From Escherichia phage CJ20, in sequence record MT533174.1: DNA of 64,000 nucleotides. The stretch is one strand, 5' to 3'. Below the pieces are notes generated by a model. It was given only the letters and a program-made list of their open reading frames with translations, was not told the origin of the DNA and ran no database searches. Position 1 is the stretch's first letter; every line of letters starts with the position of its first letter. The translations under genes and the position numbers were made by a program. Shown piece after piece: positions 4,641 to 29,764 of this stretch.

Positions 4641-4670
4641 GTTTACAACAGGGTTTGACCAGTGCATAAT
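4641..4670 (+). promoter_or_regulatory. Early-type promoter (GTTTACA, 18 nt, CATAAT) with leader shared with 27807-27836
   Basis: Motif; a 24-nt stretch ATAATGATTCCATACTGAGTTAC is identical at both sites. Confidence 0.5.
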
Positions 4671-4711
4671 GATTCCATACTGAGTTACACAATAAAACAC
4701 TGGAGAATAAA

Positions 4712-5080
4712 ATGAAAATCAATCTTAACTCATACATCAAAGGTAAAGACCACGACGGTTACAAAGCCATTGAAACTAAAGAAATGCAATGGCACTTGTA
4801 TAAAGAACAGTTTGAATTCGTTTCTTGTATGACTCCAGAAGGTCCTTCTGATGACTTCTCCTGGAAAATTATGGTAACAAACTTTTTTACTGGTGATACC
4901 TACGAACTGAAAACTTTGATTCTTGGCAAGATTCGTTGTAAGACCTATGAAGATGAAGAAACTGGTTATTCTGAAGATGTTACATGGTATCAAAATGGTC
5001 GCACCACTGCTGATGATTTGATTGAAAAAATGAAAGCTAAGGGTGAATTAAATTTAGATAATTGGATTAAAGTCGCATAA
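4712..5080 (+). CDS. Hypothetical early protein
   Basis: 122-aa ORF; SD CTGGAG; early promoter-like element 4641-4670. Confidence 0.55.
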   Translation: MKINLNSYIKGKDHDGYKAIETKEMQWHLYKEQFEFVSCMTPEGPSDDFSWKIMVTNFFTGDTYELKTLILGKIRCKTYEDEETGYSEDVTWYQNGRTTADDLIEKMKAKGELNLDNWIKVA

Positions 5081-6922: not shown

Positions 6923-7743
6923 AACCCGTTATTTTAACAGATATTGATGGCGTATGTTTGTCATGGCAGTCAGGCTTGCCTTATTTCGCCCAAAAATACA
7001 ATTTACCCCTGGAACATATCCTTAAGATGATTCAGGATGAAAAATTTGTGACCCCTGGTAAACTGTTCAATTGTGATGAAGAGTTGGGAGCACAGTTGAT
7101 TGAGAAATATAACTGTTCAGATTTTATTCGCTATTTGTCTCCTTACGCAGATGCGTTAAGGGTTATTAATAACCTCAAAGAGCAATATGATTTTGTGGCT
7201 GTTACTGCCCTAGGTGATTCCATTGACGCCCGTCTGAATCGTCAATTCAACCTGAATGCTTTGTTCCCTGGTGCATTTAAAGAAGTGATGATGTGTGGCC
7301 ATACAGCCTCTAAAGAAGAGTTATTCCAGAAAGCGAAGACCAAATATAATGTCGTTTGTTATATTGATGACCTTGCACACCATTGCGACCATGCGAGTGA
7401 AATCCTTGAAGTCCCGGTTTATTGGATGGCCCGTGGCGAACGTGATGCTATTCCTAAAACAGCTTCCAAAGTTTTTAATTGGGACGATATTGCTGGACAG
7501 CTTAAACTGAAACACAAAGATGAACCAGTCAAACCAGAATTCACCCCTGATGAACTCCGTAAACTGGAAGAGTTGTTTCGTGAAACTCGCCGTCTTCAAC
7601 AACAAATGCAACAAGGCTGGCAGCCAGGTCAACCATGGACCCCTGGATATAATCCAGCATATCCATATCAATATGGCCCACGCGTAGGTACTGGCATTGA
7701 ATATTGGTACAATCAACCGACTGGTGGCCAAGGGGGTAATTGA
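6919..7743 (+). CDS. HAD-superfamily hydrolase-like protein (putative nucleotidase) with Q/P/Y/G-rich C-terminal tail
   Basis: N-terminal motif ILTDIDGV fits HAD motif I (DxDx[T/V]); C-terminal ~50 aa are low-complexity. Confidence 0.55.
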   Translation: MKPVILTDIDGVCLSWQSGLPYFAQKYNLPLEHILKMIQDEKFVTPGKLFNCDEELGAQLIEKYNCSDFIRYLSPYADALRVINNLKEQYDFVAVTALGDSIDARLNRQFNLNALFPGAFKEVMMCGHTASKEELFQKAKTKYNVVCYIDDLAHHCDHASEILEVPVYWMARGERDAIPKTASKVFNWDDIAGQLKLKHKDEPVKPEFTPDELRKLEELFRETRRLQQQMQQGWQPGQPWTPGYNPAYPYQYGPRVGTGIEYWYNQPTGGQGGN

Positions 7744-24174: not shown

Positions 24175-25182
24175 ATGTTTAAAAAATACAACAGCCTTGA
24201 AAATCACTATAACAACAAGTTCATTGAAAAGATTCGTCTACAAGGCTTCACCAGCGGTGAATGGGTAGCTCGTGAAAAGATTCATGGTACCAATTTTTCA
24301 TTAATTATTGAACAAGACAATGTGACATGCGCGAAACGCACTGGACCTATCCTACCCGCAGAAGATTTCTATGGTTATGAAATTGTATTAAAGAACTACG
24401 CAGATTCTATTAAATCTGTGCAGAAACTTTTGCAGGATATTAATTACCAGGCTTACCAGATTTATGGCGAGTTTGCCGGGGCAGGTATCCAGAAGAATGT
24501 GGATTACGGTGATAAAGATTTCTATGTGTTTGATATCCGCGTTACTAAGGAAGATGGCTCTGAATCCGTCCTGACTGACACACTTATGGAAGCCTTCTGC
24601 ATTATTCATAAGTTTAAAGTTGCTCCGCGCCTGGCTACCGGAAGCTTTGAAGACCTTATTAAACTCCCTAATGACCTGGATTCTGTGGTCCCTGATTACA
24701 ATTTTACAGTGGATAACGCAGGATTGACTACAGCAAATACCACTGATTTTGATGCAAAGGTGGAAGGTAAAGTATTCACTGCTGAAGGATTTGTATTAAA
24801 ACCTGATGTTCCTGCCTGGTTACCTAACGGCGAGCGTGTAGCGATTAAATGTAAGAACTCTAAATTCAGTGAAAAGAAAAAGTCTGATAAACCTATTAAG
24901 GCTGCTGTTGTGTTGTCCCAGGAAGACCTGGATATTTTATGGAAGTTCACTGATTATGTGACTGTTAACCGTATTAATAATGTTATCAGTAAGATTGGTG
25001 AAGTATCTCCGAAAGACTTTGGAAAGGTAATGGGTTTGACTGTCCAGGATATCCTGGAAGAAGCTGGTCGTGAAGGCCTTGAATTGACCCAGTCAGAAAA
25101 TCCTGTTGAAGTTAAAAAGCAACTTATCACAAATGTAAGAGAAACATTAAGACATGTTTGGATTGCATTAATTAGTGAATAA
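24175..25182 (+). CDS. rnlB: RNA ligase 2
   Basis: 335 aa; near-collinear with recalled T4 Rnl2 (MFKKYxSLENHYNxKFIEK...[17 protein letters not shown]...[19 protein letters not shown]); middle promoter motif 24051-24078. Confidence 0.92.
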
Positions 25183-25212
25183 AAAAAGGGCCGCAAGGCC
25201 CTTATTCTTTTT
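25183..25212. terminator. Bidirectional terminator between rnlB (+) and gp24 paralog (-)
   Basis: AAAAAAAGGGCCgcaaGGCCCTTATTCTTTTT. Confidence 0.6.
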
Positions 25213-26485
25213 CCAGTGGTGGAAGTTTAACACCAAGATAAGAACTCAATTGGCTTTGGTTAGCCATCTTATCCATATCAGCCCCATCAATAAGGCGGGC
25301 TTCTTTATCATCTTTAGCAACGGTGTAGGGGTTAGCTGTCAAAGCATAACGAGCTAACAGTGCAACCGTAGGCTGTAAGCTTTCAGGGTCAACAATAACC
25401 TTGAATTCCCCAACCGATGTATCACCCTCATCATCAACTTCGCTAAGCCCTTCCGTATAAGGCGCATAATACAAAGATGCGACCGTCTGACCCTCGCCCA
25501 TATCCGCATTTACGCCAACAATAACATAATCGCATGGACTATTCATATCTGCATAAAGAGGCAAACCGTTCTTCAGAACACCATAGGCCAATTCATCCTG
25601 GTCTTCCTTTTTCTCAACCCAGCCAGAAGCGGCTAAAATAGCTGCACAACGGGAAGAAGCAACCGCATATGTACCAGCAAACGAAGTCTGACGTTGAACT
25701 GCAGAATTCATTTCACACATATAATAATACAGGGTTCGTGCGCGGTCCTGTGCGTTATCATATTTCGGGTCAGTGAGATTCAACACACCTTTTTCAGAAA
25801 CACCTTGTACCTTGAAGCGAGAACTAACAGTAATAAGGGATTGCAATACATCCTTATTAATTTCCTCTGCCATTTGAATGCCGAGAATATTATCGATGAA
25901 GTCTGTTGCATCGAAACCGTTTGCTTCCAGGTCCTGAGCAAGCTCGACAGTTAAAGAAGTTTTCAACTTTCTGGATTTAACTTCAGTCTGCCATTTATCG
26001 ATACGGAAACCAGCTTCAGCAATTTCAGGATGCCCCTTTTCAAATTTATCAGTGAAAGCAGCATCTGACATCATTCTTATATGTCCAGCAGCAATGGCTT
26101 CAGAAATAACTTCACCTAAATCAGTTTCGAGTGTCCCGGCAAAGGGGGAAGCTTCCAGAACTTTGAATACAACGCTTTCAAACTGAAACATATCGCCGAC
26201 TGCATAAGCTTCGTCTTTGTTCGTAAATTCTGGGATATTCTTACGCTCGAACATACCAATCTGGCCCGCGAATGTCGCTCCACCAAGATATGTCATTTTA
26301 TCATCTGGGGTCAGAACACGAACACCATACAACGCTGCAACAGGCTGGGTAGTTTTCTGTTCGGCAACGAGTGCTTTAAAAATTCGTTTATTCGTGGCCT
26401 GGGTATAAGAAAGCAAATTAGGACGGGCGACCTGGTTGGCCGCCGTTAATGTTGATTCGTGAATTAGTGCGTTAATCTTTTGCAT
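25202..26485 (-). CDS. Capsid vertex protein gp24, divergent paralog
   Basis: 427 aa; roughly half the residues align with the adjacent gp24 ORF and with T4 gp24/gp23-fold motifs (QPVAALYGV, SRKLKT, TVELAQDLEANGF, EINKDVLQSLITVS, YAPYTEG, ANPYTVAKDDKEAR); ATG directly follows stop of upstream gp24 (TAAATG). Confidence 0.85.
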   Translation of the reverse strand: MQKINALIHESTLTAANQVARPNLLSYTQATNKRIFKALVAEQKTTQPVAALYGVRVLTPDDKMTYLGGATFAGQIGMFERKNIPEFTNKDEAYAVGDMFQFESVVFKVLEASPFAGTLETDLGEVISEAIAAGHIRMMSDAAFTDKFEKGHPEIAEAGFRIDKWQTEVKSRKLKTSLTVELAQDLEANGFDATDFIDNILGIQMAEEINKDVLQSLITVSSRFKVQGVSEKGVLNLTDPKYDNAQDRARTLYYYMCEMNSAVQRQTSFAGTYAVASSRCAAILAASGWVEKKEDQDELAYGVLKNGLPLYADMNSPCDYVIVGVNADMGEGQTVASLYYAPYTEGLSEVDDEGDTSVGEFKVIVDPESLQPTVALLARYALTANPYTVAKDDKEARLIDGADMDKMANQSQLSSYLGVKLPPLEKE

Positions 26486-27766
26486 TTACGCCTCATAAAT
26501 GATTGGCGGAAGTTTAACACCGAGCAGATAAGACATATTGCTCTGGCCGGCCATTAAATCCATATTAGTTGCATCGATAATACGAGCTTCTTTGTCGTCT
26601 TTAGCAACGGTGTAAGGGTTAGCTGAAAGTGCATATCGAACCATCAGGGAGATAGATGGCTGCAAACTGTCTGGGTCCACAATGACCTTAAACGCACCTA
26701 CGTGTTCTTCATCATCTAAGTCCAGGCCTTCGGTATAAGGAGCATAGAAGATTGAGCCTACGACTTCGTTTCCACCGTAATTTTCTTTAACGCCAACGGT
26801 TACATAATCCAATGGACTGTTAACATCACAGAATACAGGAAGACCATTAATCAAATAACCGTACGCTGTTTCAGGAAGCCATTGCTCGTCTTCAGGTTTA
26901 TGCTTCAGCCAGCCAGAACCAGCCAACATAGCAGCAACACGGCTAGAGGCAACAACAAAGGTACCGGAATAAGATGTAGTTTTCTGAATTTCGGAGTTCA
27001 TTTCGCAAACCAGTTCGTACAGTTTACGTGCACCTTCTGGAGCTGCATCATATGTTAAATCGATGGTGCCATTGTCAGAAACGCCAGTTACTTTATAACG
27101 CTTGGAAACGGTAATAAGAGACTGAAGAACATCTTTGTTAATTTCATCTGCCATAATAGTGGCAAGCAGGTCTTCCAAGAAAGCAGGAGCGTTAAACCCA
27201 TTTGCTTCCATATCCTGAGCAAGTTCAACAGTTAGTGCAGTTTTCAATTTACGTGTTTTAACCGGAGCATTCCATTTATTAACCTGGAATACAGCATTAC
27301 TAATCTCAACATCACCGGCTTCAAATTTCTCGGTGTGTGCCGCATCAGGAACCAAACGAATGGTTAATGCAATAAGACCTTCTTGCAGAACATCAGATAA
27401 CACTGTTTCTTTGGTCGATGCAAATGGATTATCAACCAGAGCTTTATAAACGGTATTTTGATATTTTACATATTCACCTTTAGCTACAGGCTGAGTGGCT
27501 GTAGTTAATTCTGGAATAGTTGTACGGTCTTTAGAACCGACTTCGCCACCATAAGTAGCACCAGTCTGGAAACTGAATTCATTATCAGGAGTAAGATATT
27601 TAACACCGTACAGAGCCGCAACTGGCTGGTTAGTACGTTGTTCAGCGATAATATCGCGGTAAATCAATTTGGTTGTAGCACGGGTCAAAGCAACAAGATT
27701 CGGGCGGCCCAAGGAGTTGCTGGTAGTGGTAGTTGACTCGCGCAGTAATTTGTTAATCTTTGCCAT
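26486..27766 (-). CDS. 24: Capsid vertex protein gp24 (T4-like ortholog)
   Basis: 426 aa; high similarity to recalled T4 gp24 (MAKINxLLRESTTTxSNSxGRPNLVALTRATTKLIY...); TATAAATA on - strand at 27793-27800. Confidence 0.92.
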   Translation of the reverse strand: MAKINKLLRESTTTTSNSLGRPNLVALTRATTKLIYRDIIAEQRTNQPVAALYGVKYLTPDNEFSFQTGATYGGEVGSKDRTTIPELTTATQPVAKGEYVKYQNTVYKALVDNPFASTKETVLSDVLQEGLIALTIRLVPDAAHTEKFEAGDVEISNAVFQVNKWNAPVKTRKLKTALTVELAQDMEANGFNAPAFLEDLLATIMADEINKDVLQSLITVSKRYKVTGVSDNGTIDLTYDAAPEGARKLYELVCEMNSEIQKTTSYSGTFVVASSRVAAMLAGSGWLKHKPEDEQWLPETAYGYLINGLPVFCDVNSPLDYVTVGVKENYGGNEVVGSIFYAPYTEGLDLDDEEHVGAFKVIVDPDSLQPSISLMVRYALSANPYTVAKDDKEARIIDATNMDLMAGQSNMSYLLGVKLPPIIYEA

Positions 27767-27792: not shown

Positions 27793-27800
27793 TATTTATA
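27793..27800 (-). promoter_or_regulatory. Late promoter core TATAAATA upstream of gene 24
   Basis: Octamer on - strand about 27 nt upstream of gp24 ATG. Confidence 0.5.
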
Positions 27801-27806
27801 AAAGTT

Positions 27807-27836
27807 GTTTACAACCCGATTAAGATAAGACATAAT
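27807..27836 (+). promoter_or_regulatory. Early-type promoter (GTTTACA, 17 nt, CATAAT), duplicate of the 4641 element
   Basis: Motif and 24-nt identity with 4665-4688. Confidence 0.5.
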
Positions 27837-27872
27837 GATTTCATACTGAGTTACCAAACAATGGAGTCTAAA

Positions 27873-28154
27873 ATGAACAAAGTATCTTTCCTTCGGAATA
27901 CCTTTAAAAATCTGGAAATTGAAGTTGTTGCATTGGTCAACAAATACCCAAATGGTGTTAATGGTAATGCTCTGAACAAACTAGTTAAAAAATATGAAAA
28001 CTTAGCATATGATACTGATTTTTGGTGGAATGGTAATTATTCTACTCACACCAAAGACAAATCAGGTAACTGGTTGAAACTTCAAGAGAACAGTGTTAAT
28101 TTCAGAGACCTCATCAAGCGCCGGGTAGAAGTTCATTTAAATGGTATGGTATGA
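27873..28154 (+). CDS. Hypothetical early protein on the opposite strand between genes 23 and 24
   Basis: 93 aa from ATG 27873 (SD GGAG inside the track's 27861 start); early promoter-like GTTTACA-17-CATAAT at 27807-27836; terminator 28161-28190. Confidence 0.5.
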   Translation: MNKVSFLRNTFKNLEIEVVALVNKYPNGVNGNALNKLVKKYENLAYDTDFWWNGNYSTHTKDKSGNWLKLQENSVNFRDLIKRRVEVHLNGMV

Positions 28155-28160
28155 AAACAA

Positions 28161-28190
28161 GAAAGGGACCTCAAGGGTCCCTTTTTATTT
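28161..28190. terminator. Bidirectional terminator between ORF 27873 (+) and gene 23 (-)
   Basis: GAAAGGGACCtcaaGGGTCCCTTTTTATTT with A-rich 5' flank. Confidence 0.6.
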
Positions 28191-28204: not shown

Positions 28205-29764
28205 TTAAATTCCCTTAACATATACACGTCTAAAGTAACCGTTCAAGCCGAGGCTGTTAACGATGTCCGGCATACCGTTTTGAATACGCTTGGTCGGAGC
28301 CTGAGCTGCCGGGTCAGCGAACGGGTTAATACCGATACCGTAACGGGTTTTGAAGCCCATAACCGGCTGGAAGTTTTTCGGGTCAGAGCCACGCAGCGGG
28401 GTCAGTGCAACATATGGTGCGTAGTAGATACCAGCATCCATTTCGTTAGCGCCTTTGTAACCGATGGTGAAGTAATCTGCGCGAGCATACTGGTCGATGT
28501 AGACACGGTATTTGCCACCCAGAACACCAGCGAACACAGCTTTAGTGGTGTCAACGTTGAAACCTTTACCCAGACCCTGAGCAGCATAAGATACGGAGGT
28601 ATCAACTGCAGCCAGTACGTTAACTACGTTACGGGAAGCGATGATGAAGTTACCTGCACCACGACCGGTCTGACGAGCGATTTCAGCGGCTTCTTTATCA
28701 ATCTGGAACAGTAAAGCTTTGAAGCTTTCACCAGCCCAACGAGCACCACGGATATCAATCGGGTCCTGGAAGTCAAACACACCAGCTTTAGCGCCAACGG
28801 TGTTGGTCATACCAGATTTACCAACCTGAGCGGAGTAGTTAATCCAATCGATAACTTCACGGTTGATTTCCAGCATAATTTCGGTAGCCAGAATACCACT
28901 CAATTCGGCATCAGCATCCATACCATGAACAGCGCGCAGGTCCTGTGCCAGTTCGATGGAGTAGCTTGCTTTCAGCTGACGGGATTTAGCTTCGATAACT
29001 TGTTTATCGATACGGAAGCCCATTTCGTTCCACGGGTTATCAGTAGAACCGTTAAAGCCTTCCTGCAATTCGGCGATAGAAGTAGCCATACCTTCAGCGA
29101 TTTCTGCCAACTTACCAGCTTCGAGCAGTTTGGTAACTTCAGCGTCAAGTTTAGCAGCATCAGTAGCACCAGCATCAACGGTTACAGCTTCAACAGCCTG
29201 GTAGTGTGCAGAACCGGTTGCTTCGAAGAAGTGAGAATAAATTTTACCAACAGTAAGCAGTTTGCCTGCAGCCAGTGCTTCGAAAGTTTTAGCAGCGCCC
29301 TGACCAGAGAACATAGCGTTCGGAGCATACATCGGGTGGAAAGCTTCTTTAGCACCAGATGCAACAGGGTCTTTACCGTAAACTGCACGCAGGGCAAATA
29401 CCTGGCCAGTTGGGTTGTTCAGAGGCTGTACGCCACAAATATCAAACGCAATCAGATGCGGGATAGCACGACGAACCATACCCATAACTGCCGGCCCAAT
29501 CTGAGTTACTGCACCAGAGGTCTGGCCAGCAGCGATATTGGTAGCATCATAACCATGGTCACCACCGATTTCAGCTTCAGTCAGGAAAGAACCAAATGCT
29601 TCGGAGATTTTTTCGTCACGGTATTCAGGAGCGGTCAGGATATCTTGTTCCTGGTTTTCAAAGATTTTAGCGATGATAGCTTGTTTAGAAGCACCAACGA
29701 TTTCAGGAAGAGCTTCGTTTTCCAGCAGAGCGGACCATTTTTGAACTAATGCATTCTTTTTCAT
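28205..29764 (-). CDS. 23: Major capsid protein
   Basis: 519 aa; very high similarity to recalled T4 gp23 over most of its length (SKQAIIAKIFENQE, GQTSGAVTQIGPAVMGMVRRAIP, NPWNEMGFRIDKQVIEAKSRQLKA, YFRRVYVKGI). Confidence 0.96.
   Translation of the reverse strand: MKKNALVQKWSALLENEALPEIVGASKQAIIAKIFENQEQDILTAPEYRDEKISEAFGSFLTEAEIGGDHGYDATNIAAGQTSGAVTQIGPAVMGMVRRAIPHLIAFDICGVQPLNNPTGQVFALRAVYGKDPVASGAKEAFHPMYAPNAMFSGQGAAKTFEALAAGKLLTVGKIYSHFFEATGSAHYQAVEAVTVDAGATDAAKLDAEVTKLLEAGKLAEIAEGMATSIAELQEGFNGSTDNPWNEMGFRIDKQVIEAKSRQLKASYSIELAQDLRAVHGMDADAELSGILATEIMLEINREVIDWINYSAQVGKSGMTNTVGAKAGVFDFQDPIDIRGARWAGESFKALLFQIDKEAAEIARQTGRGAGNFIIASRNVVNVLAAVDTSVSYAAQGLGKGFNVDTTKAVFAGVLGGKYRVYIDQYARADYFTIGYKGANEMDAGIYYAPYVALTPLRGSDPKNFQPVMGFKTRYGIGINPFADPAAQAPTKRIQNGMPDIVNSLGLNGYFRRVYVKGI

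What the first reader, a model, noticed from the sequence alone, without database searches (positions are those of the whole stretch)
27807..28190. Early-promoter-driven small gene on the opposite strand between major capsid gene 23 and gene 24
Where T4 carries the homing endonuclease segD, this phage has a 93-aa ORF (27873-28154) on the opposite strand with its own early-type promoter and a bidirectional terminator. A non-structural early gene inside the late head cluster is a typical moron or anti-defence position.
Basis: partly seen in the sequence, partly recalled or inferred. Interest (0 to 1): 0.5.

Follow-up and report, generated by a model that had tools for sequence, protein, structure and literature searches.

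The report
Early accessory gene between capsid genes
A small, already catalogued but uncharacterised phage gene with its own early promoter sits backwards between the two capsid genes, in the slot where phage T4 keeps the homing endonuclease gene segD; it is real and conserved, but an ordinary kind of feature.

Summary
The window is a VR7-like T-even coliphage (Gaprivervirus). Between gene 23 (28205-29764, -) and gene 24 (26486-27766, -) lies a + strand unit. It has a sigma-70 promoter (TTTACA-17-CATAAT, 27808-27836), a GGAG Shine-Dalgarno site, a 93-aa ORF (27873-28154) and a hairpin with T-runs on both strands (28160-28186).

The ORF is 100% identical to VR7ORF190c and orthologous to JS98 orf173 and RB69ORF188c (PHROG 6003). 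It occurs in 237 phage records. dN/dS is 0.05-0.25.

Ten occupied slots across four genera plus one metagenomic lineage keep TTTACA, exactly 17 nt and a -10 hexamer, while the spacer sequence varies. Empty slots (T2, TH57) lack the promoter.

T4 segD lies in the same slot, on the same strand, behind the same promoter, and its RNA is classed early in T4 omics data. IME08 and F2 carry ORF plus segD in tandem, and TH15 carries segD alone. So the ORF is not a seg remnant.

The protein is basic (pI 9.6). The confident model (pLDDT 88.6) has three helices and a beta-hairpin, and no informative sequence or fold relative was found.

An anti-defence or host-takeover role is plausible but untested. The feature is a known hypothetical gene of a known kind of cassette, so interest is low to moderate.

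The parts
26486..27766 (-). Gene 24(1), capsid vertex protein (left flank of the slot)
   Evidence: PF07068, E = 2e-97. Same layout as the annotated VR7 24(1).
27793..27800 (-). T4-type late promoter TATAAATA for gene 24, back to back with the early promoter
   Evidence: Read directly. It lies 27 nt upstream of the gene 24 start. TATTTATA is invariant in all 10 occupied slots and in T2.
27808..27836 (+). Sigma-70 early promoter: -35 TTTACA (27808-27813), 17-nt spacer, -10 CATAAT (27831-27836). The predicted start of transcription is near A27843.
   Evidence: 10/12 match. Hexamers and the 17-nt spacing are conserved across genera while the spacer varies, and the promoter is absent from empty slots. 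All 6 early-type motifs in the window lie on the + strand. No MotA box or + strand TATAAATA is visible in the sequence.
27831..27854 (+). Repeated -10/leader module CATAATGATTTCATACTGAGTTAC
   Evidence: 23 of 24 nt are identical to window 4665-4688. There are 6-11 similar places per Gaprivervirus genome and 5 in Morganella phage MP1. A 47-nt stretch is 96% identical to the MP1 promoter and leader of an unrelated gene.
27863..27866 (+). Shine-Dalgarno GGAG, 6 nt before the ATG
   Evidence: Read. GGAG is conserved in all orthologous leaders.
27873..28154 (+). 93-aa ORF (10.9 kDa, pI 9.6); equals VR7ORF190c, PHROG 6003
   Evidence: 100% aa identity to VR7. dN/dS 0.05-0.25. AlphaFold2 model with pLDDT 88.6: helices 3-24, 31-48 and 77-91, strands 52-61 and 67-71.
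28160..28186 (.). Hairpin terminator shared by the ORF (+) and gene 23 (-), with T-runs on both sides
   Evidence: Hairpins at the same place in T4, TH57, JS98 and JS09 have different stems but keep the pairing.
28205..29764 (-). Gene 23, major capsid protein (right flank of the slot)
   Evidence: PF07068, E = 3e-122; VR7 annotation.

Best explanation
This is a self-contained early-gene cassette lodged in a conserved insertion slot between late genes 23 and 24 of T-even phages.

Shown by sequence and comparison: a sigma-70 promoter of the T4 early type sits back to back with the late promoter of gene 24. It drives a roughly 30-nt leader with a GGAG ribosome-binding site and a 93-aa ORF. The unit ends at the hairpin that also terminates gene 23. 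The ORF is the VR7ORF190c / JS98 orf173 / RB69ORF188c family. The same slot, strand and promoter carry segD in T4, ORF plus segD in IME08 and F2, segD alone in TH15, and nothing in T2 or TH57.

Inferred: host RNA polymerase transcribes the cassette in the first minutes of infection. Expression then stops with the general T4-type early shut-off (AsiA blocking -35 recognition, RegB cutting GGAG), and late transcription later runs the other way. The product is a small basic protein with three helices, a beta-hairpin and no catalytic motif. It most likely acts by binding a host (E. coli-specific) macromolecule, either a nucleic acid or an acidic protein. That would make it a dispensable, conditionally useful host-takeover or counter-defence factor.
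For: Anatomy.

Identity and synteny.

Promoter: conserved with a variable spacer in 10 occupied slots and absent from 2 empty ones. Early motifs occur only on the + strand.

Early expression in T4: segD sits in the same slot behind TTTACA-17-TATTAT. It is classed as early RNA and middle protein, and the protein is detected, in the T4 omics data (PMC9697503 supplement).

Real gene: dN/dS 0.05-0.25.

Dispensable and mobile: absent in TH57, TH15, T2 and most Tequatrovirus. G+C is 34% against 42-48% in the flanks. The homologues in phage ABPH49 (Vequintavirinae) and in an unclassified metagenomic contig (L018) lie in arrays of small same-strand ORFs that look like early-gene regions.

Protein: the confident model is reproduced by an independent BFVD model of a family member with TM 0.87-0.91. 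The basic pI of 9.5-9.6 is conserved at 30-38% identity.

Repeated promoter/leader module.
Against: There are no transcription or protein data for this phage or for any ORF-bearing relative. Timing is inferred from the promoter type and from T4 segD.

The -10 hexamer here is CATAAT, an imperfect first base.

The function is purely inferential. No characterised protein is similar by sequence or fold, so host-binding accessory factor is a class assignment and not a demonstrated mechanism.

A 2010 review found no segD promoter in T4 and expected very low transcription (PMC2988022).
Confidence: 0.6

Rival explanations
1. Specific anti-defence protein. The 93-aa product inhibits an E. coli immune system, which explains its patchy distribution and fast evolution.
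For: It is early, small, dispensable, confined to coliphages, and diverges fast between genera (64% and 38% aa identity) while staying under purifying selection. It has a moron-like autonomous cassette. The one systematic Mosigvirus early-protein screen chose candidates by T4 homology, so by design it could not include this family.
Against: There is no similarity to any known inhibitor and no genetic linkage to known counter-defence genes. The protein is basic, so it is not a DNA mimic. Natural nulls (TH57, T2-like phages) are viable. No phenotype data exist. This is a subset of the best explanation, not a contradiction of it.
Confidence: 0.2
2. Degenerate remnant or accessory domain of a Seg-type homing endonuclease gene.
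For: It is at the same position, on the same strand and behind the same promoter as segD in T4, FL08 and TH15.
Against: BLASTP against the TH15 SegD-like protein and T4 SegD gives E = 6.6 and 4.3. There is no GIY-YIG Pfam hit. An intact ORF sits in tandem with an intact segD in IME08 and F2. Purifying selection over the full length.
Confidence: 0.02
3. Head-morphogenesis helper (for example a chaperone or regulator for gp23 or gp24), which would explain the strict synteny between genes 23 and 24.
For: The position is conserved between 23 and 24 in four genera and a metagenomic lineage.
Against: It is on the early strand with a sigma-70 promoter and has no late promoter on its own strand. It is absent from T4, T2, TH15 and TH57, which encode the same set of head genes. 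Homologues outside the T-even group lie among small early-type ORFs, not head genes. The presence of segD shows that the slot tolerates unrelated cargo.
Confidence: 0.05
4. The main function lies at the transcription or RNA level. Convergent early transcription or an antisense RNA would modulate genes 23 and 24, and the ORF would be incidental.
For: The promoter is retained whatever the cargo (ORF or segD). The transcript is antisense to any 23-to-24 read-through. In JS98, JS09 and T4 the hairpin has a poor U-tract on the cargo strand, so early transcripts may run into gene 23.
Against: The ORF is under clear purifying selection at the protein level. Empty-slot phages lack the promoter entirely, so it is not needed for 23/24 expression. 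No Rfam family reaches its threshold.
Confidence: 0.08

Closest known systems
VR7ORF190c / JS98 orf173 / RB69ORF188c (PHROG 6003), hypothetical proteins of T-even coliphages
   Same: 100% aa identity to VR7ORF190c. Full-length PHROG match with E = 2.7e-49. Same slot, strand, promoter and size.
   Different: Nothing differs; this is the same gene family. No member has a known function, and no paper in the searchable library discusses it.
T4 segD locus (free-standing GIY-YIG homing endonuclease gene between genes 23 and 24)
   Same: Same intergenic slot, same antisense orientation, same back-to-back late and early promoter arrangement (TATTTATA, 6-7 nt, TTTACA, 17 nt, -10), and the same gene 23 hairpin. 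Early RNA class in T4.
   Different: The cargo is unrelated: a 222-aa nuclease against a 93-aa protein with no nuclease motif. IME08 and F2 carry both in one operon.
PeSL cassettes (promoter-early stem-loop) of T4-type phages (Arbiol et al. 2010, PMC2839356; Comeau et al. 2014, PMC4122927)
   Same: The early promoter is close to the T4/PST PeSL consensus TTTACW-N17-TAYWAT. The promoter/leader module is repeated in the genome and shared with a distant phage ahead of an unrelated gene. It sits exactly at the boundary of indels and replacements between close relatives.
   Different: The stem-loop is downstream of the ORF, not immediately upstream of the promoter. The site lies inside the conserved head-gene block, not in a hyperplastic region.
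Morons of lambdoid phages (autonomous promoter-gene-terminator units inserted between two genes); from my own knowledge of the Hendrix/Juhala definition
   Same: It has its own promoter and terminator, is inserted between genes that are adjacent in relatives, and has a deviant G+C.
   Different: The phage is virulent, so there is no expression from a prophage and no lysogenic conversion.

Membership tests
PHROG 6003 / RB69ORF188c family | Full-length sequence similarity to the family profile | tested here: met
   E = 2.7e-49, residues 5-94 of the 97-aa reading on profile positions 1-90 of 90. 100% aa identity to VR7ORF190c.
PHROG 6003 / RB69ORF188c family | Syntenic position between genes 23 and 24 on the opposite strand | tested here: met
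   VR7, JS98, JS09, IME08, F2 and metagenomic locus L019.
T4-type early transcription unit | Sigma-70 promoter with -35 (G)TTTAC(A/T), 17-nt spacing and -10 TAnnnT, on the early strand | tested here: met
   The -10 hexamer here is CATAAT; orthologues have TACTAT, TATTAT or TATAAT.
T4-type early transcription unit | Transcript present within the first minutes of infection | not testable with these tools
   Only indirect evidence: T4 segD in the homologous slot is classed as early RNA (PMC9697503 supplement).
PeSL cassette | Early promoter of consensus TTTACW-N17-TAYWAT | tested here: met
   Consensus quoted; sequences. The window deviates at the first base of the -10 hexamer.
PeSL cassette | Stem-loop terminator immediately upstream of the promoter | tested here: not met
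   Upstream of the -35 lies the late promoter of gene 24. The only hairpin is downstream of the ORF. The sister module at 4642 does follow a T-run.
PeSL cassette | Repeated in the genome and located at indel or replacement boundaries between close relatives | tested here: met
   6-11 places per Gaprivervirus genome. A copy lies at 4665-4688. The TH15 replacement and the TH57 deletion break at the module.
Moron | Own promoter and terminator, inserted between genes that are adjacent in related phages, deviant composition | tested here: met
Moron | Expressed from a prophage / carried by a temperate phage | tested here: not met
   The phage is a virulent T-even (Straboviridae, Gaprivervirus).
GIY-YIG Seg homing endonuclease (or remnant) | GIY-YIG domain or similarity to SegD | tested here: not met
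   No Pfam hit. BLASTP E = 6.6 and 4.3. The TH15 HEG control does hit PF19835.
HNH / His-Me finger nuclease | Beta-beta-alpha motif with a conserved catalytic His | tested here: not met
Known anti-defence proteins | Homology or fold match to a characterised inhibitor, or a demonstrated counter-defence phenotype | not testable with these tools

The most novel reading that the evidence does not exclude
The family is a new, structurally orphan early effector that neutralises an E. coli-specific target, either a defence system or an essential host process. It rides in a portable promoter-plus-gene cassette whose promoter was later taken over by the homing endonuclease gene segD. On this reading, ORF alone is the ancestral state, ORF plus segD the invaded state, segD alone the state after ORF loss, and the empty slot the state after cassette loss. 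This would also supply the previously unidentified promoter of T4 segD.
Probability: 0.2. Interest if true: 0.55.

Novelty: already known. Interest (0 to 1): 0.27.

Why it matters
If the protein proved to be a host-takeover or counter-defence factor, it would add a new fold to that repertoire. It would also explain why three coliphage genera keep an early gene inside the late head operon.

The comparative picture has modest value of its own. It shows that the 23-24 interval is a reusable expression slot with four natural states, and that T4 segD very probably has a conserved sigma-70 early promoter. That agrees with omics data and contradicts an older review.

Otherwise this is one of many uncharacterised small early ORFs of T-even phages.

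Tried and rejected
**Searches that found nothing informative**
- Pfam, NCBIfam and PADLOC scans.
- The word-indexed search of 5.8 billion proteins gave only 2 hits.
- Exhaustive HMMER on 1.84 billion representatives gave about 6 true members of roughly 90 aa.
  - It also hit several large repeat proteins, with per-repeat scores of 3-12 bits that add up over 4-13 repeats. I treat these as artefacts.
  - One further hit is a chimeric assembly product (P0006).
- Foldseek against PDB gave nothing below E = 1.
- BFVD returned only a family member.
- afdb50 was not available.
- A PDB sequence-profile search gave nothing below E = 0.2.
- The IMG/VR scan returned only known isolates.
- Rfam gave only sub-threshold hits on the terminator hairpin.
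- The repeat search within the interval found nothing meaningful.

**Literature**
- No paper mentions the ORF by any locus name.
- The JS98 gp24-duplication search was unproductive.
- The SegD paper (Sokolov 2018) is not held.
- The PhageExpressionAtlas text has no RB69-like or T-even phage other than T4.

**Ideas rejected**
- Seg remnant.
- HNH nuclease: the putative catalytic His is not conserved.
- Glycosyl hydrolase family 25: this GenBank label on the EAWsc9 orthologue has no profile support.
- The 97-aa start at 27861.

Full report
**What the window is**

The interval and its flanks match Gaprivervirus phages at 92-99% DNA identity (VR20, VR26, VR7, VR25, SP18 and others). The local gene order is rnlB (+), 24(2), 24(1), small ORF (+), 23, 22, 21. 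This is the order annotated in VR7.

The flanking ORFs 28205-29764 (-) and 26486-27766 (-) are Gp23-family proteins, and 24175-25182 (+) is RNA ligase 2.

**Checking the observation**

The + strand ORF runs from 27873 to 28154 (93 aa). The ORF listing reports a start at 27861. That ATG is part of ATGGAG, the Shine-Dalgarno site, and is replaced by CTGGAG in SP18 and EAWsc9. The PHROG 6003 profile aligns from residue 5 of the 97-aa reading.

The scan finds TTTACA-17-CATAAT at 27808-27836 and a 12-bp hairpin at 28160-28186, called as terminator-like on both strands. The hairpin folds at -17.0 kcal/mol (z -3.7) on + and -15.9 kcal/mol (z -2.7) on -.

One promoter-like match in 800 nt is not significant alone (3 found, 1.8 expected). 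The case rests on comparison. I extracted the stretch between the gene 24 start and the cargo start from 12 phages.

- All 10 occupied slots read TATTTATA, 6-7 nt, TTTACA, exactly 17 nt, then a -10 hexamer (CATAAT, TATAAT, TACTAT or TATTAT). The spacer sequences are unrelated.
- The occupied slots are the window, SP18, TH15, JS98, IME08, F2, metagenomic locus L019, JS09, T4 and FL08.
- The two empty slots (T2, TH57) have the late promoter abutting the gene 23 hairpin and no -35 element.

TATTTATA is the reverse complement of the T4 late promoter TATAAATA, and it lies 27 nt upstream of gene 24. The late promoter and the early promoter are therefore back to back.

A T4-type early-promoter pattern occurs 6 times in the window, always on the + strand, against 2.15 expected on both strands from shuffles. 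This agrees with the T-even rule that early genes and late genes use opposite strands (my own knowledge).

**Is it a gene?**

tblastn finds the protein in 237 phage records.

- Gaprivervirus: 91-100% identity.
- Dhakavirus (JS98, JS10, IME08 and others): about 64%.
- Mosigvirus (JS09; its record calls the gene similar to RB69ORF188c): about 38%.
- One phage classified under Vequintavirinae (ABPH49): 36%.

A search with the most divergent member returns the same number of records, 237, with the same breakdown by organism. The exhaustive HMMER search of 1.84 billion representatives adds only a handful of proteins of about 90 aa. One of them lies in the same rnlB-24-24-ORF-23 context in a metagenomic T-even lineage.

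Pairwise dN/dS is 0.05-0.25 within and between genera. This is a real protein-coding gene under purifying selection.

**The slot and its four states**

T4 segD lies between genes 23 and 24 on the strand opposite to them. Edgell et al. 2010 note this as the sole such exception among T4 homing endonuclease genes (PMC2988022). The slot has four natural states.

| State | Phages |
|---|---|
| Promoter, ORF, hairpin | Window, VR7, SP18, JS98, JS09, L019 |
| Promoter, ORF, segD (gap of 3 nt) | IME08 (Dhakavirus), F2 (Tequatrovirus) |
| Promoter, segD-like gene alone | T4, FL08, TH15 (a Gaprivervirus) |
| Empty | TH57 (Gaprivervirus), T2 and most Tequatrovirus |

Only 53 of 871 matching records hold at least 80% of the T4 23-segD-24 stretch.

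The ORF shows no similarity to SegD-type proteins (E = 4-7). The TH15 protein, used as a control, hits the SegE GIY-YIG Pfam model. The degenerate-seg-remnant idea is refuted.

The promoter belongs to the cassette. It is present whenever cargo is present and absent when the slot is empty.

**Expression timing (inferred)**

No transcriptome exists for an ORF-bearing phage in the library I could search. For T4, the supplement of Wolfram-Schauerte et al. 2022 (PMC9697503) classes segD as early at the RNA level and middle at the protein level, with measurable protein intensities.

This fits the conserved TTTACA-17-TATTAT upstream of segD. It is at odds with the 2010 review, which found no segD promoter and expected vanishingly low transcript levels.

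By positional homology, I infer early sigma-70 transcription for the window's ORF. The GGAG ribosome-binding site is the motif cut by T4 RegB, and AsiA abolishes -35-dependent initiation. Both are established T4 biology and come from my own knowledge. Neither was tested here, and I did not check whether this phage encodes them.

**Mobile regulatory module**

The -10 hexamer and leader (CATAATGATTTCATACTGAGTTAC, 27831-27854) recur at 4665-4688 in the window, with 23 of 24 nt identical, behind a T-run.

The 85-nt promoter/leader region has 6-11 similar places per Gaprivervirus genome and 5 in Morganella phage MP1. A 47-nt stretch is 96% identical to an annotated MP1 promoter and leader in front of an unrelated 65-aa gene.

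This is the behaviour described for PeSL cassettes of T4-type phages, whose T4/PST promoter consensus is TTTACW-N17-TAYWAT (PMC4122927; PMC2839356).

Strict PeSL membership fails on one defining feature. Here the stem-loop is downstream of the ORF, not just upstream of the promoter, and the site lies inside the core head-gene block.

**The protein**

- It is 10.9 kDa with pI 9.6, and the pI of 9.5-9.6 is kept in members only 30-38% identical.
- The ORF G+C is 34%, against 42-48% in genes 23 and 24.
- Invariant residues are K3, F6, L21, N30, G31, N32, N35, A45 and Q71.
- With a 7-sequence alignment, AlphaFold2 gives pLDDT 88.6 and pTM 0.73. The model has helices 3-24, 31-48 and 77-91 and a hairpin at 52-61 and 67-71.
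- An independent BFVD model of a family member superposes with TM 0.87-0.91.
- The hairpin-plus-helix motif prompted a His-Me finger (HNH) check, but the candidate His is not conserved.
- The GenBank label glycosyl hydrolase family 25 on one orthologue has no support.

**Mechanism, with levels of certainty**

Shown: the cassette anatomy, its conservation, its natural presence and absence, purifying selection, and the orphan fold.

Inferred, with fair confidence: early sigma-70 expression, and a non-structural, dispensable role. The homologues in phage ABPH49 and in metagenomic contig L018 sit in arrays of small same-strand ORFs.

Speculative: the protein acts by binding a host nucleic acid or an acidic host protein, as a host-takeover or counter-defence factor. 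Its basic charge argues against DNA mimicry.

The only systematic toxicity screen of Mosigvirus early proteins selected candidates by homology to T4 early proteins. By design it could not include this family (bioRxiv 10.64898/2026.09.14.751387).

**Verdict**

The unit is an early, autonomous, moron-like cassette in the segD slot. However, the antisense orientation is shared with T4 segD, and the gene has long been annotated as a hypothetical in more than 200 genomes. Anti-defence is only one untested possibility.

Novelty is low: an already catalogued family of a known kind of feature. The useful by-products are the four-state description of the 23-24 slot and a conserved candidate early promoter for T4 segD.

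Noticed in passing
window 25202-27766 (- strand): Two tandem gp24 (vertex protein) paralogues, 55% identical to each other, both PF07068. The same duplication is annotated in VR7 (24(1) and 24(2)) and JS98 (24a and 24b), and it is present in a metagenomic lineage. T4 and Mosigvirus JS09 have one copy.
   Followed up: partly
window 4642-4720 (+ strand): A second early promoter whose -10 and leader (4665-4688) share 23 of 24 nt with the promoter of the finding. It is preceded by a T-run, a PeSL-like arrangement. The module has 6-11 similar places per Gaprivervirus genome and also occurs in Morganella and Providencia phages.
   Followed up: partly
L009 (T4, NC_000866) 7215-7335, - strand: T4 segD is preceded by a conserved TTTACA-17-TATTAT promoter at the same position as in all occupied slots, although a 2010 review reported no segD promoter. 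The annotated SegD start (MFKMKY) is probably 3 codons too far upstream. GGAG lies 2 nt before it, and the TH15 homologue starts MHYLIY.
   Followed up: partly
L007 (TH15, MT446392) 461-1120: An unannotated Gaprivervirus record carries a 219-aa GIY-YIG SegD-like gene in place of the ORF. It is 72% identical to the FL08 homologue and 59% to the IME08 one. The replacement junction falls directly after the shared -35 element.
   Followed up: yes
L008 (TH57, MT446422) 380-440: An empty slot in a Gaprivervirus. The deletion junction changes the first base of the gene 24 late promoter (AATAAATA instead of TATAAATA).
   Followed up: no
L003 (EAWsc9, PQ341120) 1179-1460: The orthologue is labelled glycosyl hydrolase family 25 in GenBank. 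No profile search supports this, so it is probably an annotation artefact.
   Followed up: yes
L004 (JS09, KF582788) 586-1585: rnlB is annotated as two separate CDS (720 nt and 150 nt). This suggests a frameshift, an interruption or a sequencing error.
   Followed up: no
P0004, P0008, P0009, P0012: Large repeat proteins scored E = 1e-15 to 1e-4 against the family profile. The score comes only from summing weak matches (3-12 bits each) of a W-x-[DN]-G-x(2)-S-T-x-T-x-D-x-S-G-N-W-like hairpin motif over 4-13 repeats. These are false positives, and a caution for small profiles.
   Followed up: yes
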